From NCBI RefSeq assembly GCF_963921235.1, contig NC_086108.1:3658001-3722000 (forward strand): DNA of 64,000 nt. Direction: 5' to 3'. The stretch comes from Mobula hypostoma. Taxonomy: Eukaryota. Each line of letters opens with the position of its first letter. Positions within the stretch are counted from its first letter, which is position 1. A program made the translations under genes and the position numbers. This document shows, one piece after another, positions 14,350 through 62,644 of this stretch. The notes under the pieces are model-generated. The model worked only from the letters and a program-made list of their open reading frames with translations. It searched no databases and was not told the DNA's origin.

Positions 14350-15290
14350 CGGACCTGTCCCTCAGTCTACAGCTCAGCCAGTTACCTGTGCTGTTACTGA
14401 TCTACCTGTCCCTCAGTCTTCTGGTCTACCTGTCTGTCAGTCTACTGCTCAGCCAGTTACCTGTGCTGTCTTCCGGTCTACCTGTCCCTCAGTCTACTGC
14501 TCAGCCATTTATCTGTCCAGTCTACCAGATACTTTTTCCTCAATCTACAATTCAGCAAGTTACCTGTCCAGTCTACCGGTCTACCTGTATCTTAGTCTAC
14601 AGCTCAGCCAGTTATCTGTCAGGTCTACTGGTCTACCTGTCCCTCAATCTATGGCTCAGCCTGTTATGTATGGGGTCTACCGATCCCTCAGCCAGTTGTC
14701 TGTCCTGTCTAATGGTCTACCTGTCCGTCAGTCTACAGCTCAGCCAATTACCTGGCCGGTCTACTGGTCTAGCTGTCTCTCAGCCTACAGCTCACCCAGT
14801 TTCCTTTCCAGTCTAGTCTACCTGTCCCTCAGTCTACTGGTCTACCTATCCCTGAGTAGCTGGCTGAGCTATATTCTGAGGGACAGGTAGACCGGTAGAC
14901 TGAGGGACAGGTGGACCGGTAGTCCGGACAGGTAACTGGCTGAGCTCTAGTCTGAGGGACAGGTAGATCAGTAGACCAGACAGATAACTGGCTGAACTGA
15001 AGACTGAGAAACAAGTAGACAGGACAGACAGCTGGGTGAGCTGTAGACTGGGGACAGGTAGACCGGTAGACAGACAAACATTGGCTGAGCTGTACATTAA
15101 AAGACAGGTAGATCCGTACACCGGACAGGTAACTGGCTGAGCTGTAGATTGAGGAAAGAGTATCCAGTAGACCTGTCAGATAAATGGCTGAGCTGTAGAC
15201 TGAGGGACAGGTAAACCAGTGACCGGACAGGTAACTGACTGAGCTGTAGACTGAGGGATAGGTCGAATGGTAAACCGGACAGGGATAAAT
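14350..15290. repeat. Degenerate minisatellite arranged as a large inverted (fold-back) repeat
   Basis: Left arm units ACCTGTCCCTCAGTCTACAGCTCAGCCAGTT; right arm units AACTGGCTGAGCTGTAGACTGAGGGACAGGT; orientation switches near 14855. Confidence 0.85.
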
Positions 15291-18503: not shown

Positions 18504-18753
18504 AAACATAGAAACATAGAAAACCTACAACACAATACAGGCCCTCTGGCCCACAAAGCTGTGCTGAACATGTCCCTACCTTAGAAATTACTAGGCTTAC
18601 CCATAGCCCTCTATTTTTCTAAGCTCCATGTACCTGTCCAGGAGTCTCTTAAAAGACCCTATCGTATCCACCTTCACCACTGTCACCAGCAGCCCATTCC
18701 ACGCACTCACCATTCTCTGCGTAAAAAACTTACCCCTGACATCTCCTCTGTAC
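18504..18753 (-). mobile_element. CR1 LINE 3' terminal fragment
   Basis: Highly similar to 18915-19160 and 4309-4556. Confidence 0.9.
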
Positions 18754-18914
18754 CCAATCATCCTGTGACTTGGCTATGAATAAATAGGGCATTTGCTGGG
18801 TGGCAAGGCATGAACGGCCAGAAGGGCCTATTCTACACTGTATCTCACTAAATGATAAATAAATAAATAGATAGATAGATAAACAGAACCTCCTTATCCA
18901 CCCCTCACACACAC

Positions 18915-21900
18915 AGAAACATAGAAAGCCTACAGCACAATACAGGCCCTTTGGCCCACAAAGCTGTGCCGAACATGCCCCCACCTTAGAAATTACTAGG
19001 CTTACCTATAGCCCTCTATTTTACTAAGCTCCATGTACCTATCCAAAAGTCTGTTAAAAGACCCTATCGTACCCGCCTCCACCACCATCACCGGCAGCCC
19101 ATTCCACACACTCACCACTCCCTGAGTAAAAAAACTTACCCCTGACATCTCCTCTGTACCTACTCCCCAGCACCTTAAACCTGTGTCCTCTTGTGGCAGC
19201 CGTTTCAGCCTTGGGATAAAGCCTCTGACTATCCACAAGATCAATGCCTCTCCTCATCTTATACACCTCTATCAGGTCACCTCTCATCCTCTGTTGCTCC
19301 AAGGAGAAAAGGCCGAGTTCACTGAACCTGTTTTCATAAGGCATGCTCCCCAATCCAGGCAACGTCCTTGTAAATCTCCTCTGCACCCTTTCTATGGCTT
19401 CCACATCCTTCCTGTAGTGAGGCGACCAGAACTGAGCACAGTACTCCAAGTGGGGTCTGACCAGGGCTATATAGCTGCAATATTACCTCTCTGCTTCTAA
19501 ATTCAATTCCATGACTGATGAAGGCCAATACACCGTATGTCTTCTTAACCACAGAGTTAACCTGCACAGCAGCTTTGAGTGTCCTATGGACTCAGACCCC
19601 AAGATCCCTCTGATCCTCCACACTGCCAAGAGTCTTACCATTAATACTGCCATCATATTTGACCTACCAAAATGAACCACTTCACACTTATCTGGGTTGA
19701 ACTCCATCTGCCACTTCTCAGCCCAGTTTTGCATCCTATAGATGTCCCACTGTAACCTCTGCCAGCCCTCCACACTATCCACAACACCTCCAACCTTTGT
19801 GTCATCAGCAAATTTACTAACCCATCTCTCCACTTCCTCATCCAGGTCATTTATAAAATTCACGAAGAGTAAGGGTCCCAGAACAGACCCCTGAGGCACG
19901 CCACTGGTGACCAACCTCCATGCAGAATATGACCCATCTACAACCACTCTTTGTCTTCTGTGGGCAAGCCAGTTCTGGATCCACAAAGCAATGTCCCTTG
20001 GATCCCATGCCTCCTTACTTTCTCAATAAGCCTTATCAAATGCCTTGCTGAAATCCATATACACTACATCTACTGCTCTTCCTTCATCAATGTGTTTAGT
20101 CACATCCTCAAAAAATTCAATCAGGCTCGTAAGGCACGGCCTGCCCTTGACAAAGCCATGTTGACTATTCTTAATCATATTATACCTCTCCAAATGTTCA
20201 TAAATCCTGCCTCTCAGGATCTTCTCCAACAGCTTACCAACCACTGAAGTAAGACTCACTGGTCTATAATTTCCTGGGCTATTCCTACTCCCTTTCTTGA
20301 ATAAAGGAACAACATCCATAGCCCTCCAATCCTCCAGAACCTCTCCCATTCCCACTGATGATGCAAAGATCATTTCCAGAGGCTCAGCAATCTCCTCCCT
20401 CGCCTCCCACAGTAGCCTGGGGTACATCCCGTCCAGTCCCGGTGACTTATCCAACTTGATGCTTTCCAAAAGCTCCAGCACATCCTCTTCCTTAATATCT
20501 ACATGCTCAAGCTTTTCAGTCCACTGCAAGTCATCACTACAATCACCAAGATCCTTTTCCATAGTGAATACTGAAGCAAAGTATTCATTAAGTACCTCTG
20601 CTATTTCCTTCGGTTCCATACACACTTTCCTGCTGTCACATTTGATATTCTTTCACATCTTATCCTCTTGCTCTTCACATACTCGTAGAATGCTTTGGGG
20701 TTTTCCTTAATCCTGCCCACCAAGGCCTTCTCATGGCCCCATCTGGCTCTCCTAATTTCCTTCTTAAGTTCCTTCCTGTTAGCCTTATAATCTTCTAGAT
20801 CTCTAACATTACCTAGCTCTCTGAACCTTTTGTAAACTTTTCTTTTCTTCTTGACTAGATTTATTACAGCCTTTGTACACCACAGGTCTTGTACCCTATC
20901 ATAACTTCCCTGTCTCATTGGAACGTACCTCTGCAGAACTCCACACAAATATCCCGTGAACATTTGCCACATTTCTTCTGGACTTTTCCCTGAGAACATC
21001 TGTTCCCAATTTAAGTTTCCAATTTCCTGCCTGATAGCCTCATAATTCCCCTTACTCCAATTAAACACTTTTCTAACTTGTCTGTTCCTATCTCTCTCCA
21101 ATGCTATTGTAAAGGAAGTAGAATTATGATCACTATCTCCAAAATGCTCTCCCACTGAGAGATCTGACACCTGACCAGGTTCATTTCCCAATACCAAATC
21201 AAGTACAGTCTCTCCTCTTGTAGGCTTATCTACATATTATGTCAGGAAACCCTCCTGAACACACCTAACAAACTCCACCCCATCTAAACCCCTTGGTCTA
21301 GAGAAATGCCAATCAATATTTGGGAAATTAAAATCTCCCATCACGACAACTCTGTTATTATTACACCTTTCCAGGATCTCTTTCCCTATCTGCTTCTCGA
21401 TATCCCTGTTACTATTGGGCGGCCTATAAAAAACACTCAGCAAAGTTATTGACCCCTTCTTGTTCTTAACCTCCACCCACAGAGACTCTGTAGACAATCC
21501 CTCCGTGAATGTCCACCTTTTCTGCAGCCGTGACACTATCCCTGATCAACAGTGCCACACCCCCACCTCTTTTGCCTCCCTCCCTGTCCTTTCTGAAACA
21601 TCTAAAACCCAGCACTTGAAGTAACCATTCCTGCCCCTGAGCCATCCAAGTCTCTGTAATGTCCACCACATCATAGCTCCAAGTACTGATCCACGCTCTA
21701 AGCTCATCCACTTTGTTCACAATATTCCTTGCGTTAAAATAGACACATCTCAAACCTTCAGTCTGAGCGTGTCCCTTCTCTATCACCTGCCTATCCTCTC
21801 TCACACACTGTCTCCAAGCTTTCTCTATTTGTGAGCCAACCGCCTCTTCCTCCGTCTCTTCAGTTTGGTTCCCACCCCCCAGCAATTCTAGTTTAAATTC

Positions 21901-22020
21901 CCTCCAATAGCCTTAGCAAACCTCCCCGCCAGGATATTGGTTCCCCTGGGATTCAAGTGCAACCCGTCCTTTTTGTACAGGTCACACCTGCCCCAATAGA
22001 GGTCCCAATGATCCAGAAAT
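18915..22020 (-). mobile_element. CR1 LINE, near-complete ORF2 plus the end of an ORF1 SGNH-esterase-like domain; frameshifted
   Basis: YFNARNIVNKVDEL, ITETWM, YRPPNS, MGDFNFP (APE); [27 protein letters not shown] (RT); DLYKKDGLHLNPRGTNILA (ORF1 esterase end). Confidence 0.95.
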
Positions 22021-22689: not shown

Positions 22690-23800
22690 TACACGGGCCT
22701 CACCGGTCTCTTACTTGCTATTTACTGCCTGTTACACCGCTTGGTGTTTAGGACAGCAATGAAAGTCCTTGATCTTTGTCTGTCCGTGGCTATCTTTTCT
22801 ATTTTGTCCCAGGTGTGGTTCAGGGTCCTCATTTCTGTCTCTACCGTACAGCGGCAAATTGTCTGTGGTTTCCCACATTTCCTCCGCCCTCCAGGGGTTC
22901 AATGAAGTGCTGTCTTGATGATGGAGCTGGCCTCTCTTCTCATCACGTGCCCAACCCATCTCCAACATTTCCTCATGATGATGGAGCTGGCCTCTCTTCT
23001 CATCACGTGCCCAACCCATCTCCAACATTTCCTCATGATGATGGAGCTGGCCTCTCTTCTCATCACGTGCCCAACCCATCTCCAACATTTCCTCATGATG
23101 ATGGAGCTGGCCTCTCTTCTCATCACGTGCCGAACCCTTCTCCAACATTTCCTCATGATGATGGAGCTGGCCTCTCTTCTCATCACGTGCCGAACCCATC
23201 TCCAACATTTCCTCATGATGATGGAGCTGGCCTCTCTTCTCATCACGTGCCCAACCCTTCTCCAACATTTCCTCATGATGATGGAGCTGGCCTCTCTTCT
23301 CATCACGTGCCGAACCCTTCTCCAACATTTCCTCTTGATGATGGAGCTGGCCTCTCTTCTCATCACGTGCCGAACCCTTCTCCAACATTTCCTCTTGATG
23401 ATGGAGCTGGCCTCTCTTCTCATCACGTGCCGAACCCTTCTCCAACATTTCCTCTTGATGATGGAGCTGGCCTCTCTTCTCATCACGTGCCCAACCCATC
23501 TCCAACATTTCCTCATGATGATGGAGCTGGCCTCTCTTCTCATCACGTGCCGAACCCTTCTCCAACATTTCCTCATGATGATGGAGCTGGCCTCTCTTCT
23601 CATCACGTGCCGAACCCATCTCCAACGTTTCCTCATGATGATGGAGCTGGCCTCTCTTCTCATCATGTGCCCAACCCTTCTCCAACATTTCCTCATGATG
23701 ATGGAGCTGGCCTCTCTTCTCATCACGTGCCCAACCCTTCTCCAACATTTCCTCATGATGGTTGTGACCATGTCCTCTTGGAGACACTGAAGAAGTGGTT
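22690..23800 (-). mobile_element. RTE LINE 3' fragment hosting a 60-bp tandem expansion
   Basis: Minus strand WRWVGHVMRREASSIIKTALH*TPGGRRKCGKPQT matches the RTE ORF C-terminal motif (W.GHV.R...W.P.G.R..GRP). Confidence 0.85.
22921..23760. repeat. 60-bp minisatellite, 14 near-identical copies
   Basis: ATGGAGCTGGCCTCTCTTCTCATCACGTGCCCAACCCATCTCCAACATTTCCTCATGATG repeated line for line. Confidence 0.98.
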
Positions 23801-29909: not shown

Positions 29910-30498
29910 ACGCCCTGTCCGCCAGAGAAAGCGGGATCTCCCAGTGGCCACACATTTTAATCCCACGTCCCATTCCCATTCTGACATGTCTATCCACGGC
30001 CTCCTTTACTGTAAAGATGAAGCCACACTCAGGTTGGAGGAACAACACCTTATATTCCGTCTGGGTAGCCTCCAACCTGATGGCATGAACATCGACTTCT
30101 CTAACTTCCGCTAATGCCCCACCTCCCCCTCGTACCCCATCTGTTACTTATTTTTATACACACATTCTTTCTCTCACTCTCCTTTTTCTCCCTCTGTCCC
30201 TCTGAATGTACCCCTTGCCCATCCTCTGGGTCCCCCCTCCCCCCCGTTGTCTTTCTTCCCGGACCTCCTGTCCCATGATCCTCTCGTATTCCTTTTGCCA
30301 ATCACCTGTCCAGCTCTTAGCTCCATCCCCCCCCCTCCTGTCTTCTCCTATCATTTGGATCTCCCCCTCCCCCTCCCGCTTTCAAATCTCTTACTAGCTT
30401 TTCCTTCAGTTAGTCCTGACAAAGGGTCTCGGCCTGAAACGTCGACTGTACCTCTTCCTATAGATGCTGCGTTCACCAGCAACTTTTATGTGTGTTGC
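29910..30498 (+). mobile_element. Penelope-like element 3' end (GIY-YIG tail + 3'UTR + hammerhead unit)
   Basis: Frameshifted DLPVATHFN...HSHSDMSIHGLLYC.DEATLRLEEQHLIFRLGSLQPDGMNIDFSNF, same family as 59364-61050; hammerhead motif at 30411-30448. Confidence 0.9.
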
Positions 30499-31039
30499 CT
30501 CAATTTTTCTGCCATCCAAGAGTTTCTGAATTATCTCTGATGTATCTGCTCTACCGCCACTTCTGGCAGTGCGTTTCACGCACTCCCCACTCTGTGTAAA
30601 TAATGTTAAAAAGCAACTTCACCTCTGACATCCCCCGATACATTCCTCCAAGCACAATAAAATTATGCCAGTTCCACCCTAGTAAAATGTGTCTCTGACT
30701 GTCTGCTCGGCAACAATTAGAAGAAGCCACAACTTCTCCATTTCCGGAGAATTATGAAAACAATTTTTTCCCTGCAATTCTATGAAACATTTAAATCGAA
30801 GTAATATTCTGAATGCCGTGTGAAATAAGCCGCAGATTTTTACCTAAGAGAAGTCACCATGGCAGAGTTTAGTCACGGTGTGCTGTCTTTGAAGAGACAG
30901 GTGAGAGGTTGTTAGCGTGATGGAGGGGGCTTGGATAGAGAACACAGGGAGCTTTTCTCCTTCAGAGGAAGGTCGAGAGATGGCCACAGAGTAATCGGAA
31001 GAGACACTCAGAATGTGGAAATCTATTCTCCACCAGCGA

Positions 31040-31625
31040 ATGGTGTGGATGTTGTTCCAAAGTGGATGTGGAGAAGATGTTTCTTATGGTGGGGCAGTCT
31101 AGGACCAGAGGGCACAGATAGTGTGGATGTGGAAAAGGTGTTTCCTGTAGTGGGAGAGTCTAGGACCAACCAGAGGACACAGATAGAGTGGATGTGGAGA
31201 GGACGTTTCCTACCGTGGGGGAGTCTAGGACCAGAGGACACAGTCTCGGAAAACAAGAACGTCCTTTCGAAAGGACGTTTAGATGAGGAGGAATTTCTTT
31301 AGCCAGATGGTGGTGAATCAGTGAAATTCATTGCCACAGACGGCTGTGGAGGCCAAGACATTAGGTACATTTATGTCCTGACGAAGGGTCTCGGCCTGAA
31401 ACGTCGACTGCGCCTCTTCCTATAGATGCTGCTTGGCCTGCTGCGTTCACCAGCAACTTTGATGTAGGTACATTTAAAGCGGAGCTTGATAGGTTCTTGA
31501 TTAATCAGGGTGCTAAGGGTTACAGAGGGAAGGAGAATAGACTTGAGAGGGATAATAAATCAGCCATGTTGGAATGGCGAAGCAGACTCGATGGGCTGAA
31601 TGACCTAATTTTGCTCCTATGTCTC
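31040..31625 (+). mobile_element. CR1 3' fragment with a locally triplicated segment, interrupted by a 91-bp hammerhead insert
   Basis: GTGGATGTGGA...TCTAGGACCA occurs three times; FPVVGESRT motif. Confidence 0.8.
31374..31410 (+). ncRNA. Minimal type I hammerhead ribozyme motif (PLE-type)
   Basis: GTC-CTGACGA-AGGGTCTCGGCCT-GAAAC-GTC-GAC: intact CUGANGA and GAAA core, AGG/CCT stem II, GUC triplet, GTC/GAC stem I. Confidence 0.75.
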
Positions 31626-32434
31626 AAGGGGAGGCTGAACACAGATATGAGGGAGGCGAAAAGCGGTATCTACATTAATACCGGAAACGCAAGAACATCT
31701 GAAGATGCTGGAAACCCATCAGTCCTGATGAAGGGTCTCGGCCCAAAAAGTCGACTGTTTAATAGATGCTGCCTGGACTGCAGAGTTCCTCCTCCATTTT
31801 GTGTATGTTGCTATTTAGATTGGAGAGAGGCCAGCACGAACGAGCTGGGCCGAATAGCCCGTTTCCGCGCCGCATGTTCCAGGTAATGTCGAGGAGCGGA
31901 CTCTCGTAGCATGTAAGAAGTTTCTGGAATCAGCAAAGGTACAGAGTGCTAGGATTAGTGTGGATGGGTTATTTGATGCTCAGCATAGGCATGATGGGAT
32001 GAACGGCCTGTTTCGCTGGTCTATCACTTTGTAAAGTAAACCGGGTTAACCCCTTATGCCAGGCGGAATGAATGAGCCGAGGCTCGGAGGAGGTCAATAA
32101 TGTGCGCATGTTCGGTGTCGTTGCTGTTTTTCATGCCTGATTCATAGAAGCGGTAAGCGGGGGGAGTACGGGGAATAAATTGCCCCTGTCTGGGGTAGCT
32201 AAACACCGTTCTATGCTTGATAAGATTCCTGATTTCAGCCGCTCATTTGCAAAGCGCTGATTATCGAAAGGTCCTCGTACCTATTCCTGACCCTACGAGG
32301 TCTCTCCCCCTATAACCTTTAACCTTCCCCTCCTATCTACGCCTCCCAACTTTACTCCGAAAGTGTGTTACACTATTCATTCCAGTACTGGGCTAATTTC
32401 CCCACCCTCGTTGCTGCCAAGCCGTTAGAGGGAG

Positions 32435-32735: not shown

Positions 32736-32962
32736 AAACACGAGGAAGTCTGCAGATGCTGGAAATCCGGAGCAACACAGACAAACTGCTGGACGAACTC
32801 AGCAGGCCAGGCAGCATCTAGGAAAAGAGTAAACCGCCGACATTTCGGGCGAGACCCTTCAGCAGGGACTCAGGAAGGGTCTCCTCCCCAAACGTCGACA
32901 GTCACTCTTTTTCCATGGGTGCTGCCTGACCTGCTGAGTTCCTCCAGCATTTTGTGTGTGTG
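32736..32962. mobile_element. Inverted pair of PLE terminal units
   Basis: Minus-strand unit 32736-32868 abuts plus-strand unit 32870-32962, each with a degenerate hammerhead. Confidence 0.75.
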
Positions 32963-39086: not shown

Positions 39087-41627
39087 CACAAACACAAGAG
39101 ATTCTGCAGATGCTGGAAATCCAGAGTAACACAGACAAAATGCTGGAGGAACTCAGCAGGTCAGACAGTGTCGATGGTCAGAGTAACACACACAAAATGC
39201 TGGAGGAACTCAGCAGGTCAGACAGTGTCGATGGTCAGAGTAACACACACGAAATGCTGGAGGAACTCAGCAGGTCAGACAGTGTCGATGGTCAGAGTAA
39301 CACACACAAAATGCTGGAGGAACTCAGCAGGTCAGACAGTGTCGATGGTCAGAGTAACACACACGAAATGCTGGAGGAACTCAGCGGGTCAGAGAGTGTC
39401 GATGGTCAGAGTAACACACAGACAAAATGCTGGAGGAACTCAGCAAGTCAGACAGTGTCGATGGTCAGAGTAACACACACAAAATGCTGGAGGAACTCAG
39501 CAAGTCAGACAGTGTCTGAGGTCAGAGTAACACACACAAAATGCTGGAGGAACTCAGCAGGTCAGACAGCGTCGATGGTCAGAGTAACACACACAAAATG
39601 CTGGAGGAACTCAGCAGGTCAGACAGTGTCGATGGCCAGAGTAACACACAGACAAAATGCTGGAGGAACTCAGCAGGTCAGACAGTGTCGATGGTCAGAG
39701 TAACACACACAAAATGCTGGAGGAACTCAGCAGGTCAGACAGTGTCGATGGTCAGAGTAACACACACAAAATGCTGGAGGAACTCAGTGGGACAGACAGT
39801 GTCGATGGTCAGAGTAACACACAGACAAAATGCTGGAGGAACTCAGCAGGTCAGACAGTGTCGATGGCCAGAGTAACACACAGACAAAATGCTGGAGGAA
39901 CTCAGCAGGTCAGACAGTGTCGATGGTCAGAGTAACACACACAAAATGCTGGAGGAACTCAGCAGGTCAGACAGTGTCGATGGTCAGAGTAACACAGACA
40001 AAATGCTGGAGGAACTCAGCAGGTCAGATAGTGTCGATGGTCAGAGTAACACAGACAAAATGCTGGAGGAACTCAGTGGGTCAGATTGTGTCGATGGTCA
40101 GAGTAACACAGACAAAATGCTGGAGGAACTCAGCAGGTCAGAGAGTGTCGATGGTCAGAGTAACACACACGAAATGCTGGAGGAACTCAGCAGGTCAGAC
40201 AGTGTCGATGGTCAGAGTAACACACACGAAATGCTGGAGGAACTCAGCCAGTCAGACAGTGTCGATGGTCAGAGTAACACACAGACAAAATGCTGGAGGA
40301 ACTCAGCAGGTCAGACAGTGTCGATGGTCAGAGTAACACACACAAAATGCTGGAGGAACTCAGCCAGTCAGACAGTGTCGATGGTCAGAGTAACACACAC
40401 AAAATGCTGGAGGAACTCAGCAGGTCAGACAGTGTTGATGGTCAGAGTAACACACACAAAATGCTGGAGGAACTCAGCAGGTCAGACAGTGTCGATGGTC
40501 AGAGTAACACACACAAAATGCTGGAGGAACTCAGTGGGACAGACAGTGTCGATGGTCAGAGTAACACACAGACAAAATGCTGGAGGAACTCAGCAGGTCA
40601 GACAGTGTCGATGGTCAGAGTAACACAGACAAAATGCTGGAGGAACTCAGCAGGTCAGAGAGTGTCGATGGTCAGAGTAACACACACGAAATGCTGGAGG
40701 AACTCAGCCAGTCAGACAGTGTCGATGGTCAGAGTAACACACACAAAATGCTGGAGGAACTCAGCCAGTCAGACAGTGTCTGAGGTCAGAGTAACACACA
40801 CAAAATGCTGGAGGAACTCAGCAGGTCAGACAGCGTCGATGGTCAGAGTAACACACACAAAATGCTGAAGGAACTCAGCGGGTCAGACAGTGTCGATGGT
40901 CAGAGTAACACACACAAAATGCTGGAGGAACTCAGCAGGTCAGACAGTGTCGATGGTCAGAGTAACACACACAAAATGCTGGAGGAACTCGGCAGGTCAG
41001 ACAGTGTCGACGGTCAGAGTAACACACACAAAATGCTGGAGGAACTCAGCAGGTCAGACAGTGTCTGAGGTCAGAGTAACACACACAAAATGCTGGAGGA
41101 ACTCAGCAGGTCAGACAGTGTCTGAGGTCAGAGTAACACACACAAAATGCTGGAGGAACTCAGCCGGTCAGACAGTGTCTGAGGTCAGAGTAACACACAC
41201 AAAATGCTGGAGGAACTCAGCAGGTCAGACAGTGTCGACGGTCAGAGTAACACACACAAAATGCTGGAGGAACTCAGCAGGTCAGACAGTGTCTGAGGTC
41301 AGAGTAACACACACAAAATGCTGGAGGAACTCAGCCGGTCAGACAGATCAATGGTCAGAGTAACACACTCAAAATGCTGGAGGAACTCAGCAGGTCAGAC
41401 TGTCGATGGTCGGAGTAACACACACAAAATGCTGGAGGAACTCAGCAGGTCAGACAGTGTCGATGGTCAGAGTAACACACACAAAATGCTGGAGGAACTC
41501 AGCAGGTCAGACAGTGTCGATGGTCGGAGTAACACACACAAAATGCTGGAGGAACTCAGCAGGTCAGACAGTGTCGATAGAAAAGAGTAAACAGTCGACG
41601 TTTCGGGCCGAACCCCTTCACTGGGAC
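39087..41627 (-). mobile_element. PLE terminal unit containing the 57/59-bp minisatellite
   Basis: Starts AAACACAAGAGATTCTGCAGATGCTGGAAATCC and ends AAAGAGTAAACAGTCGACGTTTCGGGCCGAACCCCTTCACTGGGAC, the same ends as the unexpanded unit at 32736-32868. Confidence 0.85.
39122..41578. repeat. 57/59-bp minisatellite, about 43 copies
   Basis: Unit CAGAGTAACACACACAAAATGCTGGAGGAACTCAGCAGGTCAGACAGTGTCGATGGT; copy number estimated from length divided by unit. Confidence 0.97.
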
Positions 41628-46393: not shown

Positions 46394-46437
<44 letters not shown>

Positions 46438-46450
46438 GCGTATATTAAAT

Positions 46451-46528
46451 CAACACACATCAAAGTTGCTGGTGAACGCAGCAGGCCAGGCAGCATCTCT
46501 AGGAAGAGGTACAGTCGACGTACAGACA
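46451..46528 (-). mobile_element. 78-bp PLE terminal insert with 12-bp TSD
   Basis: CGTATATTAAAT at 46439-46450 and 46529-46540; inside a Rex1 3'UTR. Confidence 0.8.
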
Positions 46529-49500
46529 CGTATATTAAATAGTTACATTAAATCCGTAGAGCAAAAAAACAGAAATAATAAAAAAGTAGTGTGGTAGAGT
46601 TCATGGGTTCAATGTCCATTCAGAAATCGGATGGCAGAGGGGAAGAAGCTGTTCCTGAATCATTGATCAGGCTCCTGTACCTCCTCCCTGATGGTAGCAA
46701 TGAGAAGAGGGCATGGCCAGGGTGATGGGGGTCCTTAATGATGGATGCCGCCTTTCTGAGACACCGCTGCTTGAAGATGTCCTGGATACTACGGAGGCCA
46801 GTGCCCGTGATGGAGCGGACTGAGTTTACAACTCTCTGCAGCTTACTTCGATCCGGTTCAATGGCCAGCACCCCCCCCCCCACCCCAAACCAGACGGTGG
46901 CGCAGCTTTTGTGTGTTTTTCATTTATTCCATCGTATTTATTTGCTGTAATGTGAATGCCTGCAGAAATTAATCTCAGGGTTGTATAATAGCGACATGTG
47001 CATACTTTGATAATAAATTGATCTGGAAGCGCAAGACTTTCGTTCACAGGAAGGCCCATTTGTGGGTTTGATTTCTGCAATGAAGTCAGTTTTCCAGCGC
47101 TCGGCCAGGTGAAAAACAGAGCGAGGTGCTGTCCATGCAGACAGGAAATTGCAAGTAACACTTTGTCTGTCGCTTGTCGCCACTTTAAAGTGTGTTTGCG
47201 TGATGCCGAGTTAGTTTTACCGAGTCTAGCACGTATAGAGAGCCAATTTCACTTTGTTGATTGCACGGAATAGGAGGGTAGACACTTCAAATGCAAACAG
47301 ACACCTTTTTTTTGTAAATAGAGAACGGGATCGTTGTGAAATATAAGGACATAACTCGCGCGAAAGTGGGCAGCGTCGAGACCACTCTGCTCGAAACGGC
47401 AACTAAACGCGTTTTGTCAGAGTCTTCGCTGTTCTTGGTGAGTAAGTGCGGATCTCGGCGGCACTAGGCAATGCCGATCAGCGAGGAGGAGCGGGGCATT
47501 TCACCCTGGAGTCCTGAGGTCAGCAATTTGATTCCCAGGCATCTATTGTTCGCCTGAACTGCGAAACGTGATAAATATGTGGACCGGAGCGCACAGACTC
47601 AGAATAGAGGGGCGTCTCTTTAGAAAAGAGATGAGGAGGGATTTCTTTAGCCAGAGGGGTAAATTCATTGCCATGGACGGCAGTGGAGGCGAGTCATTTG
47701 GTATATTTAAAGCGGAGGTTAATAGTCAGGGCGTCAAAGGTCACGGGGGAAAAGGCAGGAAAGTTGAGGTTGAGAGGGGAATTCAGGCATCACGGAACGG
47801 TGGAGCGGATTCGACGGGCCGAACGGTCTAATTCTGTTCTTATGTCTTGCGGCTGTGAGGAGATTCAGTGGAGTGGGGTCGGGAAACATCACGGGGCGAA
47901 GGTGAAGCGAGGGAGGAAGGGAGTCGCTGAGCGAAGGTGAGAGGAGATCTCTCCTGATCCGCGATGCTGGCGGGGCAGGCAGATTCAAACCTCACCCCGT
48001 CAAAAGGGGAAAGCAGCTGAGGAACACCTAGTCTCCTTTATCTTTGGAGACTGCTGAGGAGCGATGCAGTGGCAGTTTAAAGAAGGGACCTGCTAAACTG
48101 AACGTACAGAATGTCTCCAGTTAGATTAGCAAGAGGCTGCTCACAGAAAGGAAGCTCGGGAGAAGCTTCCTGCAAGGGAAGGCAGGTCACGGCGTAAACG
48201 GATCGGTGGGACTTCTTTAAAAGTAATTTTGATGATCTATTTTTGAAGTGATTTTCAAATCATCCGGTGAATGGAACTTGTGGGCGGTAAGATTTATTTT
48301 ATTTTAGTTTATTTAGCGCGGAATAGATCCTTCGAGCCGCGCCGTTCACCAACCCCCCTATTCAACCCTAGCCCAACCATGGGGCAATTTACAATGTCCA
48401 GTTACCCTACCAACCAGTTAGATTCTTGACTGGTCAGGGAATGAAGGGATGTGGGGAGAAGGCAGGAGATTGGGGCCGAGAAGAAAATTGGATTAGCCAT
48501 GATGAAATGGCGGAGGAGAATCGATGGGCCAAATGGCCTAATTCTGCTCTTATATCTTATAGTCATATATATTTATACTTCCTGTAATACATTTTTCTCT
48601 CTGTTATCATGCATTGGATCGTGCTGCTGCCGCAAAGTTAACATCTCACGACATGTCCCGGTGACATTTAAGCTGATTCAATTACCTCTCGGCTGGGTGG
48701 TTCAGCACCCCCTCCCGGTTACCCTGTTTCTTCCATCCTCAGTGCCCAAGAATTTCTCCGCCTCTGTCACAATTAGTCGGCGCCCGAACTTCCACAGCTC
48801 CTCTGGGCGGAGAATCGGAAGATCCATCGCCCTTACAACGTGAAACATTACGGGATAGTCCTTGCCGTTCAGCTTATAATATTTAACCAACTCCGAGATC
48901 AATCCGACCCCTCTAAGAGTTTCTGAATTGTCCCTACCACCTACCAGTGTGCTCTATGCTCCCACCAGTCTCCGGTTAAAGAGCTACCTTTGACAGCTCC
49001 CGATACTTTCCTCCAATCACTTCAAAGTTATGCCCCTTGTCTGAGCCATTTCCACTCTGGGAAAAGGTCTCTGACTGTCCATCCATCTGCGTCTCTTATC
49101 ATCTTGTACATCTCTATCAAGTCTTCTTAGAATAAAGATTCCTTCATTTCTGATTCAGACATTATAACTGTTATATGAATGTCCGTGACCTTACAGGTAG
49201 CATAGTGCTGACCTGGGTTCAATTCCCGCTGCTGCCTTTAAGGAGTTTACTCAAATATATATATATATATATGTAAATAATAGTTAAATAAGTAATGCAA
49301 AAATAGAAATAAAAAAGTAGTGAGGTAGTGTTCATGGGTTCAATGTTCATTCAGAAACCTGGTGGCAGAGGGGAAGAAGCTGTTCCTGAATCATTGAGTG
49401 TGTGTCTTCAGGCTCCTGTACCTCCTCCCTGATGGTAGTAATGAGAAGAGGGCATGTCCTGGGTGGTGGGGGTCCTTAATGATGGATGCTGCCTTTTCGA

Positions 49501-51349
49501 GGCATCGCTCCTTGAAGATGTCAAGGGTGGTGGAGTAGGTGTGCTGGGTGAATGGCCTGTGTTCCTTTCCATTCTCCCCACATTTGTAAATTGAAAATTA
49601 ATTGGTAAATGTGTTAGTTGTTGTCACGGATACGGAGGTACAGTGGACAAGTACGTTTTGCATGGCGTTCCTACAGATGATTTCATCACATCAGTGCATT
49701 GAGGCAGAACAAGGGGGACAATAGCAGAGTGCAGAGTAAAGTGTCGCAGTCACAGGGAAAGGGCAGAACAGGCAGACAGTAATGTACAAGGGGCAAGAGA
49801 AGGCAGGTAGATTATGAGGGCAAGAGTCCAATTTGTCATAGTAGAGGACCATCAAGGAGTCTGATAATACTGGGGCAAAAGCTGTCCTGGGGCCTGGTGA
49901 TACTGATTTCAGGCATTTGTATCTTCTACTCAATGGGAGAGGAGAAAGAGAGAATGTCCAGGGTGGGTGAGGTCTTTGATTATGTTGGCTGCTTTACTGA
50001 GGCAGGGAGAAGTCCTGCTTCCTTGTAGGCGGTGGGTGTGATGGAGAGTGACGAGGGGGTTGACCAGGGAAATAAGATGGGGTGGTGGTGTGGATCTGGA
50101 TGAGGCATTGAACTGGACAGAAGGATGGTGTGGACGAGAGGAAGATGTGGATGAGACGATGGTGTGGATGGTCCTGCTTTGTTAGGACAATGAAATGGAC
50201 GGACAATGGTGTGGAAAGTGGGATGGTGCGACAGTGTGGACAGAGGGATGGAGCGGAGAGGCAGATGAAGCTGAGAAATGTGAAATGTTAGTTTCTTGGG
50301 AAGAGTTAGAGGTGATAGAAACTAGGGGCTGTAATTCTGAAAGGGCAAAATGACTCAGTTTGTTGAAATTGATCGAAAAGGCTAGAAAATGGTTCTGAAA
50401 ATCAGAAGGGTTTTCCAGCTTTGGAACTGAGAGCAAGAGGAGGGGTGTGGTGGTGGGAGACTGAGGTGGAAAGACAAGGGAATGTAGAAGCTGCAGATCT
50501 GGAGCAATGCACGGCCGATCAGGCAACGTCTGCCGAGGGAAATGGACGGTTGATGTTACCAGCCAAAACCCTTCATCTGGTCTGAAAGAGAGAGGGGGAG
50601 TAAAGAAGGTACTCTACTGGAAATGTCGACTATCCATTTCCATCCACAGATGCTGCCCGACCCACAGGCTTCCTCCAGAATCTAATGGCGAACACTGCTG
50701 GGTTACGCATTAGATCACTTTTGGGCTCCATGGCTTAGAAAAGATACAAAGAGTTTTGAGAGGGTGTGGAAGAGATTTACCACAATGATGGGCTGGGGTG
50801 GTGAAAGTACACTTGAGAGAGAGAGAGGGGTGAATGTATGCATGCCAGACAGAGAGAGAAAAGTTTGAGGGCACAGAAGTACTTATACCAGACAGAGACA
50901 GAAAGAGGGAGAAAGAGAGAGAGGAGGGGTGAAAGTACACGTGTGAGAGAGAGAGAGAGAGAGAGGCACAAGGCAAAACAAAGTACTGCAGGAGCTCAAC
51001 CCCACTGTCCATGTCACCCCACAGACACTGTTCCACCCACTGGTTGCAGAATCTGTAATCACTTGTCCTCTGGGAATGAAAGACATTAGTTCAGACTTGT
51101 ATCAGGCAGGGAGCCAAGAGCGACACACAAAAAATGCAGGAGGAACTTAACATATTAGCAGAATTAGGCCATTCAGCCCATCGAGTCTGCTCCGCCATTC
51201 CATTATGACTGATTTATTATCCCTTTTAACCCCATTCTCCCACCTTCTCCCTGTAACCTTTGACATCCTGACTAATCTAGAACCTGTCACCTCTGCTGAA
51301 TGGGGAGGTTCGGCTGGTGGCAGATGGAGTGGGGTTACAGAGAGCATGT

Positions 51350-53401: not shown

Positions 53402-55915
53402 GGCAGCCAGGGTTCCCTCATCTGCTTCCGGCATTCTGAGGCAGCCAGGGTTCCCTCATCCACCTCCGGCATTCTGAGGCAGCCAGGGTTCCCTCATCCA
53501 CCTCCGGCATTCTGAGGCAACCAGGGTTCCCTCATCCCCCTCCGGCGTTCTGAGGCAGCCAGGGTTCCCTCACCGGCCTCCGGCGTTCTGAGGCAGCCAG
53601 AGTTCCCTCATCCACCTCCGGCGTTCTGAGGCAGCCAGGGTTCCCTCATCCACCTCCGGCGTTCTGAGGCAGCCAGGGTTCCCTCATCCACCTCCGGCGT
53701 TCTGAGGCAGCCAGAGTTCCCTCATCCCCCTCCGGCGTTCTGAGGCAGCCAGGGTTCGCTCATCCCCCTCCGGCGTTCTGAAGCAGCCAGGGTTCCCTCA
53801 CCGGCCTCCGGCGTTCTGAGGCAGCCAGGGTTCCCTCACCGGCATCCGGCGTTCTGAGGCAGCCAGGGTTCCCTCATCCACCTCCGGCGTTCTGAGGCAG
53901 CCAGGGTTCCCTCAACCACCTCCGGCATTCTGAGGCAGCCAGGGTTCCCTCATCCACCTCCGGCGTTCTGAGGCAGCCAGGGTTCCCTCATCCCCCTCCG
54001 GCGTTCTGAGGCAGCCAGGGTTCCCTCATCCACCTCCGGCGTTCTGAGGCAGCCAGGGTTCCCTCATCCACCTCCGGCATTCTGAGACAGCCGGGCTTCC
54101 CTCATCCCCCTCCGGCGTTCTGAGGCAGCCAGGGTTCCCTCATCCCCCTCCGGCGTTCTGAGGCAGCCAGGGTTCCCTCACCGGCCTCCGGCGTTCTGAG
54201 GCAGCCGGGGTTCCCTCATCCCCCTCCGGCGTTCTGAGGCAGCCAGGGTTCCCTCAACCCCCTCCGGCGTTCTGAGGCAGCCAGGGTTCCCTCATCCCCC
54301 TCCGGCATTCTGAGGCAGCCAGGGTTCCCTCATCCACCTCCGGCGTTCTGAGGCAGCCAGGGTTCCCTCACCGGCCTCCGGCATTCTGAGGCAGCCAGGG
54401 TTCCCTCATCCCCCTCTGGCGTTCTGAGGCAGCCAGGGTTCCCTCATCCCCCTCCGGCGTTCTGAGGCAGCCGGGGTTCCCTCACCGGCCTCCGGCGTTC
54501 TGAGGCAGCCAGAGTTCCCTCATCCCCCTCCAGCGTTCTGAGGCAGCCAGGGTTCCCTCATCCCACTCCGGCGTTCTGAGACAGCCGGGGTTCCCTCATC
54601 CCCCTCCGGCGTTCTGAGGCAGCCGGGGTTCCCTCATCCCCCTCCGGCGTTCTGAGGCAGCCAGGGTTCCCTCATCCACCTCCGGCGTTCTGAGGCAGCC
54701 AGGGTTCCCTCATCCACCTCCGGCGTTCTGAGACAGCCGGGGTTCCCTCATCCCCCCCCGGCGTTTTGAGGCAGCCAGGGTTCCCTCACCGGCCTCCAGC
54801 GTTCTGAGGCAGCCAGGGTTCCCTCACCGGCATCCGGCGTTCTGAGGCAGCCAGGGTTCCCTCATCCTCCTCCGGCGTTCTGAGGCAGCCAGGGTTGCCT
54901 CATCCACCTCCGGCGTTCTGAGGCAGCCAGGGTTCCCTCACCGGCCTCCGGCGTTCTGAGGCAGCCAGGGTTCCCTCATCCCCCTCCGGCGTTCTGAGGC
55001 AGCCAGGGTTCCCTCACCGGCCTCCGGCATTCTGAGGCAGCCAGGGTTCCCTCATCCCCCTCCGGCGTTCTGAGGCAGCCGGGATTCCCTCATCCCCCTC
55101 CGGTGTTCTGAGGCAGCCAGGGTTCCCTCATCCCCCTCCGGCGTTCTGAGGCAGCCAGGGTTCCCTCATCCACCTCCGGCGTTCTGAGGCAGCCAGGGTT
55201 CCCTCACCGGCCTCCGGTGTTCTGAGGCAGCCAGGGTTCCCTCATCCCCCTCCGGCGTTCTGAGGCAGCCAGGGTTCCCTCATCCACCTCCGGCGTTCTG
55301 AGGCAGCCAGGGTTCCCTCATCCACCTCCGGCGTTCTGAGACAGCCAGGGTTCCCTCATCCCCCTCCGGCGTTCTGAGGCAGCCAGGGTTCCCTCACCGG
55401 CCTCCGGCGTTCTGAGGCAGCCAGGGTTCCCTCATCCCCCTCCGGCGTTCTGAGGCAGCCAGGGTTCCCTCACCGGCCTCCGGCGTTCTGAGGCAGCCAG
55501 GGTTCCCTCATCCCCCTCCGGCGTTCTGAGGCAGCCGGGGTTCCCTCATCCCCCTCCGGTGTTCTGAGGCAGCCAGGGTTCCCTCATCCCCCTCCGGCGT
55601 TCTGAGGCAGCCAGGGTTCCCTCATCCCCCTCCGGCGTTCTGAGGCAGCCAGGGTTCCCTCATCCACCTCCGGCGTTCTGAGGCAGCCAGGGTTCCCTCA
55701 TCCACCTCCGGCGTTCTGAGGCAGCCAGGGTCCCCTCACCGGCCTCCGGCGTTCTGAGGCAGCCAGGGTTCCCTCATCCCCCTCCGGCGTTCTGAGGCAG
55801 CCGGGGTTCCCTCACCGGCCTCCGGCGTTCTGAGGCAGCCAGGGTTCCCTCACCGGCCTCCGGCGTTCTGAGGCAGCCAGGATTCCCTCACCGGCCTCCG
55901 GCGTTCTGAGGCAGC
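53402..55915. repeat. 38-bp GC-rich minisatellite, about 66 copies
   Basis: Unit GGCAGCCAGGGTTCCCTCA(TCCA/TCCC/CCGG)CCTCCGGCGTTCTGA; period 38 measured from 53402 to 53440. Confidence 0.97.
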
Positions 55916-58990: not shown

Positions 58991-59363
58991 CAGGGGACTG
59001 TGACTGTCTCTACCACCACCCCTGGCAGGGTATTCCACACACCCACCACTCTCAGTGAGAGAAAAAATCTTGCATATGACATCACCCCCCCCCCCATACT
59101 TTTCCTCCAAACACCTGAAAATTATGTGCCCTGGTATTAGCTATTTCTGCCCTGGGGGAGAAAGTTTCTGGCTATCCTCTTGATCAATGCTTCTTATCTT
59201 ATACACCTCTATCAAATCACTTCTTATCCACCCTCACTCCAAGGAGAAGTCAAACCATTCATTGTCAATGAACTATATACATGTATACTGCCAAATGAAA
59301 CTTTTCTCCGGACCTATCCTCATTAGACATGCTTTCTAATCCAGGCTACATTCTGGTAAATCT

Positions 59364-61050
59364 TAAACACAAAATAATCTGCAGATGCTGTAAAAGATCA
59401 AAGCAACACTTTCAGTACGCTGGATGAATTCAGCAGGTCGGGCAGCATCAGTCAGAAACGATGAGTCGACGTTTCCGGCCGGAGCCCTTCGTCAGGACTG
59501 AAGAATGAAAGATGGGGAAGGATTTGAAGAATGCTTGTAGCTTCAGTTGAAAGACCAGTAATTTGAAAGACAAAAGGGTGGGGGAGAGGAAGCATTGAGG
59601 TCATAGCCCTGAAAACAATGGGTAGTAGAAGGAGGCGGAACCATGAGGGAGGTGGTAGGCAGCTGGGGGAGGGGGCAGAGTGAAATAGGGATAGAGGAAG
59701 GGAGGGGGAGGGAATTGCCAGAAGTTGGAGAATTCTATGTTCATTCCAAGGGGCTGGAGACTACCTAGACAGTATGTGAGGTGTTGCTCCTCCAACCTGA
59801 GTTTAGCCTCATCATGGCAGTAGAGGAGGCCATGTATGGACATATCTGAATGGGAATGGGAAGCAGAGTTGAAGTGGGTGGCTACCGGGAGATCCTGTCT
59901 GTTGTGGCGGACGGAGCAGAGGTGCTCGACGAAGCCGTTCCCCAATCTGCGTCGGGTTTCACCGATGTAGAGGAGGCCGCACCGGGAGTACCGGATGCAA
60001 TAGATGACCCCAACAGACTCACAAGTGAAGTGTTGCCTCACCTGGAAGGACTGTTTGGGGCCCTGAATGGTGGCAAGAGAGGAGGTGTAGCACTTGCGCT
60101 TACAGGGATAAGTGCCAGGTGGGAGTTCAGTGGGGATGGACTTGCGGATAAGGGAGTGGCGGAGGGACCGATCCCTGCGGAAAGCAGAGAGGGGTGGAGA
60201 GGGAAAGATGTGCTTAGTGGTGGGGTCCTGTTGAAGGTGGTGGAAGTTGCGGAGGATAATGTGCTGGATCCGGAGGCTGGTGGGGTGGTAGGTAAGGACA
60301 AGGGGAACTCTGTCCCTGTTGTGGTGGCGGGAGGATGGGGTGAGGGCCGAAGTGCGGGAAATGGAGGAGATGCGGGTGAGGGCATCATTGATGACGGTAG
60401 AAGGGAAACCACGATCCTTAAAGAAAGACGACATTTGAGATGTCCTGGAAAGGAAAACCTCACCTTGGGAGCAGATGCGGCGGAAACAGAGGAACTGGGA
60501 ATAGGGAATGGCATTTTTGCATGTGGCGGAGTGGGAAGAGGTATAGTTGAGGTAGTTATGAGAGTCAGTGGGCTTGTAGAAGATGTCAGTGGGCAGTCTG
60601 TCTCCAGAGATGGAGACTGAGACATCGAGAAAGGGGAGAGAAGTGTCCGAGATAGACCAAGTGAATTTGAGGGCTGGGTGGAAGTTAGAAGTAAAGTTGA
60701 TGAAATTGACAAACTCAGCATGGGTGCAGGAAGCAGCACAAATGTAGTTGTCAATGTACCGAAGGAAAAGTTGGGGAGCAGTACCAGAATAGGTTTGGAG
60801 CACAGACTGTTCCACATAAGCAACGAAGAGGCAGGCGTAGCTGGGTCCCATGCGAGTTCCCATAGCTAAACCCTTAGTCTGAAGAAAGTAGGAAGAGCCA
60901 AAAGAGAAGTTATTAAGTGTGAGAACCAGTTCCGCCAACCGGAGGAGGGTAGTGGTGGTGGGGAACTGGTGAGGTCTATTATTCGGAAGTAACAGAGGGC
61001 TTTGAGGCCTTCTTGATGGGGAATGGAGGTGTATAAGGATTGGACATCTC
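59364..61050 (-). mobile_element. Penelope-like retroelement (RT + GIY-YIG, Neptune-like), 5'-truncated, 13-bp TSD
   Basis: DVQSLYTSIP, GLAMGTRMGPSYACLF, FLRYIDN (second catalytic Asp lost), VIYCIRYSRCGLLYIGET; TSD TTCTGGTAAATCT at 59351-59363 and 61051-61063. Confidence 0.95.
59464..59500 (-). ncRNA. Minimal type I hammerhead ribozyme motif in the PLE 3' terminal repeat
   Basis: Reverse complement CAGTC-CTGACGA-AG-GGC-TCCG-GCC-G-GAAAC-GTC-GACT: intact core, AGTC/GACT stem I. Confidence 0.75.
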
Positions 61051-62104
61051 TTCTGGTAAATCTCCTCTGCACCCTTTCCAGAGTTTCCACATCCTTCCTG
61101 TAATGAGGTGACCAGAACTGAGCAGAATATTCCAAGTGTAGTCTTAGTACAGTCCATACTCCCAGTGTACTGGCGTATGCCTGAAATTGGTTTGCGAGTG
61201 CCAAGGTAGAATGGAGAACTTTGTTTGCATGCAATCCAAACAGACCATTCCACTGAGACAGTACGAGGGAATGTACGTTGCGTGCCTGTGATCTTGCTGC
61301 AAGCACATTTTTCAGTGTACCTACACCTCTCCATGCCTGAGTGCGCGTAGCAGTAAATGCAATCTGAGACTCTAAATATTTGACCCTTTGAACCCAGAGA
61401 ATCAAAATCAGGTTTATTGTCACTGACAACTGTCATGAAATTCATTGTTTTGTGACAGCAGTATGGTGAAATACATAAAACAATTAATTACAACAAGATA
61501 GAGATGTGTGAGAGAGTTATGGAAAAGTATGGCACAGAAACAGGCCCTTCAGCCCATCTAAACTGCCTACTGCCATTGACCCATCAGAAGTGTGGATTGG
61601 GACATGGATGGGAGGCTGTGGTCCCAGAGCAGGTCGGCGGGAGGAGGCAGTTTAAATGGCTCAGCACAGACTACATGGGCCTATGTTTTTCTATGACTCT
61701 GACTCCACTATTTTTGCACTGCTTTTTTTAAAATATGTATTTCTCACTGCAATTTGTAGTTTTAAAAATGTATGACAATATACTGCTGCCGCAAAATTAC
61801 AGGTCTCACGACATATACCAGTGATATTAAACCTGATTCTGATTCTAGGCGCTGCGCATGGATAATGAAGCGAAATTTGCACAAAACAGATGTTTAAAAT
61901 CTTAAACTCAAAAAATAACGTTGGAAGTACTTTGCGGGTCAGACAGTGTCAGATTAGAAACTAAAAACCATTGTATACATTTCTGTTACTTTTGTTTACA
62001 TAATATCAATGGGGAAATGTATCTATCTATATTCTTTGTATTTAAAATACTTGCCAATAAGATGGAAAATGTTTTTTAAAATGTAGTATGTTATTTTCGA
62101 ACAT

Positions 62105-62525
62105 GAGACAATCTGTAGATGCAGGAAATCCAAAACACCACACACAAAAAAGAGTAAACAGTCAACGTTTAAGGCCGAGACCCTTCATCAGGACTGGAAA
62201 ACAAGGAGGAAGACACCAGAATAAAAAGGTGGGGAGAGGGGGACAGCTGGAAGGTGATGGCTGAAGCCAGGTGGGTGGGAAAGGTAAAGGTCTGGAGAAG
62301 AAGGAATCTAATAGGAGAGGAGAGTGGACCGTAGGAGAAAGGGAAGGAGGAGGGGATCCAGGGGAAGTGATAGGCAGGAGAGAAGTAAAAGATCAGAGTG
62401 GGGAATAGGGGAAGTGGGAAGGAGGAAGGGAAAGAGACCAGGTGACAGGTGATGGGTGAAACCAGGTAGGTACTCTTTTCCATAGATACTGCCTGACCTG
62501 CTGAGTTCCTCCAGCATTTTGTGAA
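62105..62525 (-). mobile_element. PLE 3'UTR + terminal unit with an inverted terminal piece
   Basis: Hammerhead-like motif at 62159-62197 (minus); plus-strand tail at 62470-62523. Confidence 0.8.
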
Positions 62526-62644
62526 GATGTTATTTTGTAGTTTTTTGTTCAACAGCAAGAAACCTGGACTGAAGTTTAGATACAGAGGAGATTAGTGTTA
62601 TCCAAGAACAGCTATTCCAATAGAACAGACATGGAAATGATATT

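What the first reader, a model, noticed from the sequence alone, without database searches (positions are those of the whole stretch)
31362..31476. 91-bp hammerhead-only insertion with a perfect 12-bp TSD
Inside a CR1 3' region, TAGGTACATTTA is duplicated (31362-31373 and 31465-31476) around 91 bp. The insert consists only of an intact-core hammerhead (starting in stem I) and the PLE terminal tail. This directly shows that such a minimal unit was integrated as one event, and the perfect TSD suggests it is young. Whether it is a stand-alone mini-retroelement or an extreme 5' truncation cannot be decided from one copy.
Basis: partly seen in the sequence, partly recalled or inferred. Interest (0 to 1): 0.7.

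Follow-up and report, generated by a model that had tools for sequence, protein, structure and literature searches.

The report
Penelope stub starting at hammerhead foot
This 91-base insert is a real but probably dead stub of a very common Penelope-type jumping gene, and about half of its relatives nearby begin at the same spot just in front of the element's small ribozyme motif, likely because the copying enzyme ran off the start of the element's RNA there; it is not shown to be a separate mini-element.

Summary
A 12/12 duplication flanks 91 bp inside a CR1-type LINE, and 4 of 4 paralogous LINE copies aligned have the motif once. The insert is the hammerhead end of a Neptune-type Penelope-like element (PLE); a 600-bp sister copy and an RT+GIY-YIG copy lie in the same window. 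Corrections: the ribozyme is the known dimer-dependent minimal type, cut here to a 3-bp helix I, so it is probably inactive. The insert lacks the optional 'tail' and stops about 7 nt short of the usual 3' end. A perfect 12-mer dates it poorly. 5' ends are not smooth: 9 of 18 window copies start within 11 nt at the foot of helix I and none at the cut site (P 3e-7; 1e-3 in the strictest subset; offsets partly set by eye). Best reading: internal priming about 90 nt downstream, then run-off at an RNA start there (inferred, about 0.55). An independent mini-retroelement is not shown. The scan noted this pattern before, in this and other genomes, and those notes shaped my wording. No genome was held, so no genome-wide count was made here.

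The parts
31362..31373 (+). left copy of target-site duplication (original LINE sequence)
31374..31374 (+). single T matching neither the sister's A nor the TSD; probably non-templated (inferred); same T-GTC start in 3 other copies
31375..31377 (+). remnant 5' strand of hammerhead helix I (3 bp with 31406-31408; 4-5 bp in four other copies)
31378..31385 (+). core CUGACGA plus the extra nucleotide before helix II typical of PLE minimal hammerheads
   Evidence: PMC4209133
31386..31397 (+). helix II, 4 bp with 4-nt loop; closing pair G-U instead of the usual G-C
31398..31405 (+). GAAA core, palindromic ACGU in place of helix III, C17; predicted cut between 31405 and 31406
   Evidence: PMC4209133
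31406..31464 (+). 3' strand of helix I and body of the PLE terminal repeat; ATG at 31426 shared with other copies; ends about 7 nt short of the common no-tail 3' end
31465..31476 (+). right copy of target-site duplication (first base also fits the element)
31061..31630 (+). host: 5'-truncated CR1-type LINE end (ORF2 C-terminus and 3' end), with an internal 61-65-bp tandem duplication
29910..30500 (+). sister PLE copy of the same subfamily, about 600 bp: GIY-YIG C-terminus, pyrimidine-rich UTR, hammerhead, no-tail end
46436..46540 (-). second TSD-flanked (14/15) stub of the same subfamily, 75 bp, starting 5 nt before the cut site and lacking the core
59360..60860 (-). longer PLE copy of another subfamily: RT C-terminal half, linker, GIY-YIG, UTR, hammerhead at 59495, tail

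Best explanation
The 91 bases are a single insertion of the hammerhead-bearing end of a Neptune-type Penelope-like element into an older LINE, likely made when the element's enzyme primed inside its RNA about 90 bases downstream of the ribozyme motif and likely ran off the RNA's start at the foot of helix I. Shown: TSD, empty site in paralogs, identity with the end of protein-coding PLE copies, clustering of 5' ends at helix I and not at the cut site, two classes of 3' end. From the literature: a PLE protein nicks both strands of AT-rich DNA, starts reverse transcription at two internal RNA sites 30-40 nt apart, and uses uncleaved RNA (PMC11167929); PLE transcription starts inside the upstream terminal repeat (PMC2377424). 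Inferred: the RNA starts at about the A four bases before CUGA, so the priming site also lies near the RNA's 5' end and copying from it gives a fixed stub of about 90-100 nt (about 135-140 with tail); the lone T is a non-templated base added one base short; staggered nicks gave the 11-12-bp TSD. The stub lacks the upstream sequence and most of helix I, so it is probably a dead end.
For: Insert matches the 3' end of the 600-bp copy that carries a GIY-YIG C-terminus. The window's PLE ORF has 81% identity to a ray protein and hits RT/GIY-YIG proteins; 35 of 44 homologs with a GIY motif carry the CX2-5CxxC linker. 9 of 18 copies start at offsets -6..+4 (C3 = +1), an interval with 7.5% of the exposure, P 2.5e-7; strictest subset (non-inverted, this copy removed) 4 of 11, P 1.4e-3, 0.027 after x20. 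0 of 20 rows start at +26..+32 around the cut. Edge copies lack the pyrimidine-rich UTR (40-nt pyrimidine share 0.40-0.62 against 0.72-0.85 in 4 long copies). 4 of 20 rows carry a 3' tail and one an inverted 5' tail; most others end about 40 nt earlier, like the two start sites of PMC11167929. An initiator-like YYANWYY (consensus recalled) has its A at -3 in 3 of 3 long copies with an intact hammerhead, each with an AT-rich box about 25-32 nt upstream (read off).
Against: No RNA start was measured. Offsets were set by eye with alignment support, the 11-nt window was chosen after seeing the data, n is 18, and only 2 of 18 copies have a recoverable TSD, so most 5' ends are homology limits of old copies. 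The initiator-like motif overlaps helix I and follows a pyrimidine tract, so it is partly forced (1% per base background); it also reads as a splice acceptor. A capped start would be expected to leave an extra G, but this copy and three others show T. Copy 31722 matches two bases upstream of the proposed start. No 5' loose-end peak at 31375 or 30413 was among the rows shown (24 of 6190 and 12 of 409 rows shown). The in vitro paper concerns a Poseidon, not a Neptune, element, and in D. virilis the start lies upstream of an intron that ends at helix I.
Confidence: 0.55

Rival explanations
1. Same PLE stub, but the preferred 5' end is a barrier: RT stalls or jumps to the target's other strand on leaving the folded or protein-bound hammerhead, and the RNA continues upstream.
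For: Explains the clustering equally well. Inversion centres also fall here (32866/32874, 44095). The target's last six bases match the sister's upstream six at 5 of 6 positions, so microhomology could have captured the cDNA. The PAc hammerhead folds with protein help (PMC11167929).
Against: The hammerhead fold is weak in monomer predictions (helix I pairing probability 0.07-0.23 in 3 of 5 copies, 0 in one, 0.92 in one). The extra T interrupts the microhomology. Initiator-like and AT-rich motifs sit at the expected spacing.
Confidence: 0.2
2. A stand-alone, SINE-like mini-retroelement: stubs are themselves transcribed from an internal promoter and re-mobilised by PLE protein.
For: Defined 5' end. 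Non-autonomous PLE derivatives and trans-mobilisation by pLTRs are described (PMC8557442, PMC3846280, bioRxiv 10.64898/2026.07.22.740005). The insert carries variants (31411-31412, 31433) that neither window sister shows where it covers them; those at 31412 and 31433 are common in the run of the same organism. Four copies share a T-GTC start.
Against: Edge-starting copies belong to at least two subfamilies and each resembles long copies; the insert is collinear with the 600-bp copy. A same-subfamily stub has a different 5' end (+24). The 3' end is also off the common position. Linkage of the variants to short copies was not testable.
Confidence: 0.12
3. Copy of a spliced RNA: homology stops at helix I because an intron ends there (pyrimidine tract + AG|TC) and the TG is the end of exon 1.
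For: Acceptor-like sequence precedes helix I in 3 of 3 long copies with an intact hammerhead; the D. virilis intron ends at helix I (PMC4209133). Four copies share TG before TCC.
Against: No shared exon-1 sequence upstream of TG in those four (best upstream scores 12-16, background level). I saw no convincing donor by eye in the UTR of the long copy (no splice predictor was run). PLEs are known to retain introns on transposition (PMC2377424).
Confidence: 0.06
4. Ordinary random 5' truncation; the start at helix I is coincidence.
For: PLE insertions are highly 5'-truncated (PMC8557442); single minimal hammerheads were already ascribed to truncated PLEs (PMC4209133); window ends range from +48 to about -1400.
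Against: Clustering P 2.5e-7 to 1.4e-3 across four versions of the table.
Confidence: 0.05
5. Monomer of a non-LTR retrozyme released by self-cleavage or rolling-circle copying.
For: Type I hammerhead, no ORF, PLE-related; retrozymes are reported for one chondrichthyan (bioRxiv 10.64898/2026.07.22.740005).
Against: Not tandem; neither end is at the cut site; a cleaved RNA could not template the core upstream of the cut; helix I is 3 bp.
Confidence: 0.02

Closest known systems
EN+ Penelope-like elements, Neptune/Nematis type, 5'-truncated insertions (PMC8557442 passages; PMC3846280 passages)
   Same: RT + C-terminal GIY-YIG parent, CX2-5CxxC linker in relatives, hammerhead in the terminal repeat, optional tail, inverted partners, short TSD
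   Different: Truncation is described as frequent, with no preferred end named in what I read; here 5' ends cluster at helix I
Minimal hammerheads (min-HHR) of metazoan PLEs (PMC4209133, results and discussion read)
   Same: Type I, no helix III, palindromic 15.2-16.2, extra nucleotide before helix II, mostly found as single motifs
   Different: Helix I cut to 3 bp by the insertion boundary; 10.1-11.1 is G-U
PAc Poseidon element of Anolis, in vitro mechanism (PMC11167929, main text and methods read)
   Same: Two classes of 3' end about 40 nt apart; ends not at the cut site; AT-rich target with an ATT motif in the TSD
   Different: Other clade; priming region GT-rich here, AC-rich there; what I read of the paper does not analyse genomic 5' ends
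Non-LTR retrozymes (bioRxiv 10.64898/2026.07.22.740005 main text; PMC7229834 search listing only)
   Same: Non-coding, type I hammerhead, PLE-derived
   Different: Defined by tandem units each with a hammerhead; this is a dispersed single stub

Membership tests
EN+ PLE (Neptune/Nematis type) | Sequence continuity with an RT + C-terminal GIY-YIG ORF | tested here: met
   Insert aligns to 30413 copy whose upstream encodes a GIY-YIG C-terminus, 80% identical to the ORF at 59604-60860
EN+ PLE (Neptune/Nematis type) | CX2-5CxxC linker between RT and EN | tested here: met
   Present in the best hit and 35 of 44 homologs; the window's own copy has lost the last Cys
EN+ PLE (Neptune/Nematis type) | RT phylogeny separating Neptune from Nematis | not tested
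   No tree built; Neptune is assumed from the vertebrate distribution in the 2026 preprint
EN+ PLE (Neptune/Nematis type) | Optional 30-40-nt tail and inverted truncated partners in the family | tested here: met
   4 of 20 rows with tail, one inverted tail, three inverted pairs; this insert has neither
min-HHR | CUGANGA and GAAA..UH core, no helix III, palindromic 15.2-16.2, extra nucleotide at 9/10.1 | tested here: met
min-HHR | Helix I of 4-5 bp and G10.1-C11.1 pair | tested here: not met
   3 bp and G-U in this copy; helix I is 4-5 bp in four other copies
min-HHR | Cleavage as dimer or with protein help | not testable with these tools
   needs an in vitro assay
Non-LTR retrozyme | Tandem units each bearing a hammerhead | tested here: not met
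   single copy; the 57-bp PLE-derived array in the window lacks the core
Non-LTR retrozyme | Circular or cleaved RNA | not testable with these tools
   only contigs were available
SINE-like non-autonomous PLE derivative | Defined 5' end | tested here: met
   9 of 18 copies within 11 nt, small sample
SINE-like non-autonomous PLE derivative | Own lineage with private diagnostic changes and own promoter | tested here: inconclusive
   three same-subfamily copies only; no genome held
CR1-type LINE (host) | ORF2 C-terminus related to an APE + RT element | tested here: met
   host peptide matches the end of the window's APE/RT element at 52% over 27 aa; the clade name CR1/HER1 is recalled, not tested by tree

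The most novel reading that the evidence does not exclude
PLEs in cartilaginous fish start their RNA exactly at the first base of hammerhead helix I, and their RT primes on the 5'-proximal copy of its internal start site so often that about half of all insertions are fixed-length run-off stubs; these stubs are a fossil map of the start site, explain the mass of solo minimal hammerheads in animal genomes, and some may have become self-propagating SINE-like elements.
Probability: 0.4. Interest if true: 0.65.

Novelty: new variant of a known kind. Interest (0 to 1): 0.42.

Why it matters
As a single insertion it is ordinary: one of about 18 PLE ends in 64 kb. The value lies in the boundary. The role of PLE hammerheads is stated as unclear (PMC8557442) and cleavage is dispensable in vitro (PMC11167929). 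A preferred 5' end at the foot of helix I, not at the cut, points to where the template begins or where RT stops, and can be tested directly with 5' RACE and the existing in vitro system. It would also explain why most minimal hammerheads in animal genomes occur alone.

Tried and rejected
No genome was held, so no genome-wide histogram or tree was possible. Rfam: 0 matches at gathering score in the window; 5 chance-level matches at E 0.17-5.5 around the insert. Pfam: 3 of 22 ORFs hit (LINE RT and APE); the PLE ORF had none and was identified by homolog search. Exact pattern scans: 0 in metagenome and 0 in viral contigs; a looser pattern gave 12 loci with the same motif layout but no DNA similarity to the window, not used. 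Sequencing runs: no RNA holder listed. Summed contig depth was higher over the hammerhead region than over the upstream UTR (4.7-5.0 M against 1.7-2.0 M), but it is not a copy number and other subfamilies share that region, so I did not use it. No empty-allele joint specific to this locus was among the rows shown (15 of 185, 15 of 2869); this shows nothing either way. Dating by an ortholog failed: in organism B a 432-nt contig appears to join 31196 to 32122 (inferred from pieces of equal length and depth), removing the site; in organisms C and D no listed piece bridges it. The shared ATG at 31426 had no match to the N-termini of the homologous proteins. MFE folding does not give the hammerhead fold for the monomer. 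Lunse et al. on dimer cleavage (PMC5785218) is not held and is known to me only through PMC6765202. The HER1/HE1 name for the host is recalled; one search gave a search listing only.

Full report
Observation. The 12-mer TAGGTACATTTA is duplicated exactly at 31362-31373 and 31465-31476 around 91 bp. Four paralogous LINE ends in the window (near 11.5, 47.7, 52.7 and 62.8 kb) align across the site and have the motif once, 4 of 4, so the duplication arose on insertion. The site lies in the last codons of the LINE's ORF2. The host peptide also matches the end of an APE + RT element at 19.0-21.9 kb; 'CR1' is a recalled label. The first base of the right repeat also fits the element, so the TSD is 11-12 bp.

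Identity. The insert has 14 further BLAST matches in the window, and a profile search adds more plus a 43-unit array. The closest are a copy 0.9 kb upstream (about 29910-30500) and a 75-bp stub at 46451-46525 with a 14/15 TSD. The upstream copy continues through a pyrimidine-rich UTR into a GIY-YIG C-terminus, 80% identical over 64 aa to an ORF at 59604-60860. That ORF's best hits are ray proteins (81% and 76% identity) and RT/GIY-YIG proteins, so the genome is probably a stingray-type ray (inference). 35 of 44 homologs with a GIY motif carry the CX2-5CxxC linker, which marks Neptune/Nematis PLEs (PMC8557442, passages). The insert is therefore the terminal-repeat end of an endonuclease-bearing PLE.

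Ribozyme. The motif is the minimal type I hammerhead of Cervera and De la Pena (PMC4209133, parts 1-2 of 4 read): core intact, extra nucleotide before helix II, palindromic ACGU in place of helix III. They found no cleavage for a monomer and low activity for dimers. Here the boundary leaves 3 bp of helix I against 4-5 in four other copies, the 10.1-11.1 pair is G-U, and the monomer fold has probability 8e-5. It is probably inactive (inference). The predicted cut is at 31405/31406, 32 nt inside the insert, so a cleaved RNA cannot have templated it.

3' end. Both sisters continue about 7 nt further. Contigs of the same organism show the same continuation at 31465 (274 contigs) and junctions to unrelated flanks at 30498-30499 (11 and 13 contigs in two runs). 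Four of 20 rows carry a further tail of about 40 nt and one has it inverted at the 5' side. This fits the two internal RT start sites shown for the anole element, where hammerhead mutants still insert and no reads end at the cut site (PMC11167929, parts 1-3 of 4). The insert is a no-tail copy primed slightly further in; target and element agree at 3 of the first 5 bases, which may have helped (inference).

5' ends. I tabulated 18 dispersed copies, leaving out the 57-bp array and counting two inverted pairs once. Offsets were set by eye and checked by local alignment. Nine start at -6..+4 relative to C3, four downstream, five upstream. That interval holds 7.5% of the exposure (P 2.5e-7). With both partners of inverted pairs and one doubtful copy moved out it is 8 of 20 (P 5e-6); non-inverted copies only, 6 of 12 (P 2.5e-5); and without this copy 4 of 11 (P 1.4e-3, 0.027 after allowing 20 windows). 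None of 20 starts at +26..+32 around the cut. Edge copies lack the pyrimidine-rich UTR. Limits: small n, interval chosen afterwards, only 2 of 18 ends fixed by a TSD, and no matching peak among the few loose-end rows shown.

Mechanism. PLE transcription starts in the upstream terminal repeat (PMC2377424, passages), so the hammerhead and the RT start sites also lie near the RNA's 5' end. If RT primes there it runs off after about 90-100 nt. In 3 of 3 long copies with an intact hammerhead an initiator-like motif (consensus recalled) has its A at -3, with an AT-rich box about 25-32 nt upstream (I looked for the box after reading note e1-9873525). This insert starts at -2 behind a T, read as a non-templated base. 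Against: the motif is partly forced by helix I and the pyrimidine tract, it also reads as a splice acceptor (the D. virilis intron ends at helix I, PMC4209133), and a cap would predict G. I give run-off 0.55, a structural barrier 0.2, a self-propagating SINE-like family 0.12, a spliced template 0.06, chance 0.05 and retrozyme monomer 0.02.

Age. A perfect 12-mer is weak evidence: expected 75% of the time at 2.4% divergence (the distance to organism B, 15 differences in 617) and 28% at 10%. Some support for recency comes from near-identical sisters (56 nt, 1 difference, depth 154 against 15 for unique flank) and from G at 31412 making up 58% of laid depth in organism A against 6% in B (a distorted measure). 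The orthologous site seems deleted in B.

Known and new. Truncated PLE ends, solo minimal hammerheads, tails and short TSDs are all in print (PMC4209133, PMC8557442, PMC3846280 passages). Non-autonomous PLE derivatives are too (bioRxiv 10.64898/2026.07.22.740005, parts 1-3 of 5; supplements not seen), but those are tandem. I found no paper naming a preferred 5' end at helix I in searches; the library lacks subscription papers, including Lunse et al., and Repbase/Dfam entries and supplements were not seen. The scan's own notes report the same pattern in this and other genomes. They are unchecked; I confirmed only the window-level clustering, not their genome-wide counts, and they moved me from 'preferred stop' to 'RNA start'. 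Verdict: real insertion, known class, with a testable boundary preference; new variant of a known kind, interest 0.42.

Noticed in passing
window 39122-41578 (-): 57-bp satellite, 43 copies, 94% matches, made from the PLE segment downstream of the hammerhead and grown directly from the copy at 41624; units lack the core, so it is not a retrozyme array.
   Followed up: partly
window 32736-32960, 50499-50683, 62100-62530: Three head-to-head inverted PLE pairs; in two, one arm has the tail and the other does not. In 32866/32874 the centre lies at the hammerhead core.
   Followed up: partly
window 31680-31810 (+): PLE stub with the tail inverted at its 5' side and a no-tail 3' end, 250 bp from the finding.
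   Followed up: partly
window 31426, 59447(-), 32816(-), 46495(-): An ATG about 49 nt after C3 is shared across subfamilies and opens a similar 13-16-codon or longer frame; no match to homologous protein N-termini.
   Followed up: partly
window 31061-31243: 61-65-bp tandem triplication inside the host LINE's ORF2.
   Followed up: no
window 31197-32121: Appears deleted in organism B, with a 2-base microhomology, removing the LINE end and two PLE stubs (inferred).
   Followed up: partly
window 59604-60860 (-): 419-codon open PLE frame (RT half to GIY-YIG) despite a changed RT motif (YIDN) and a lost linker Cys; fused upstream in frame to LINE-like sequence.
   Followed up: partly
window 53402-55915, 22916-23760, 14395-15282: Minisatellites: 38 bp x 66, 60 bp x 14 (97% matches, long open frames), and a 52-bp array in two opposite orientations.
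   Followed up: no
window 18600-21912 (-): Long CR1-type LINE with APE and RT fragments and a duplicated 3' end.
   Followed up: no
L001-L012: Contigs from metagenomes and one MAG carry the same minimal-hammerhead layout, probably eukaryotic PLE DNA.
   Followed up: no
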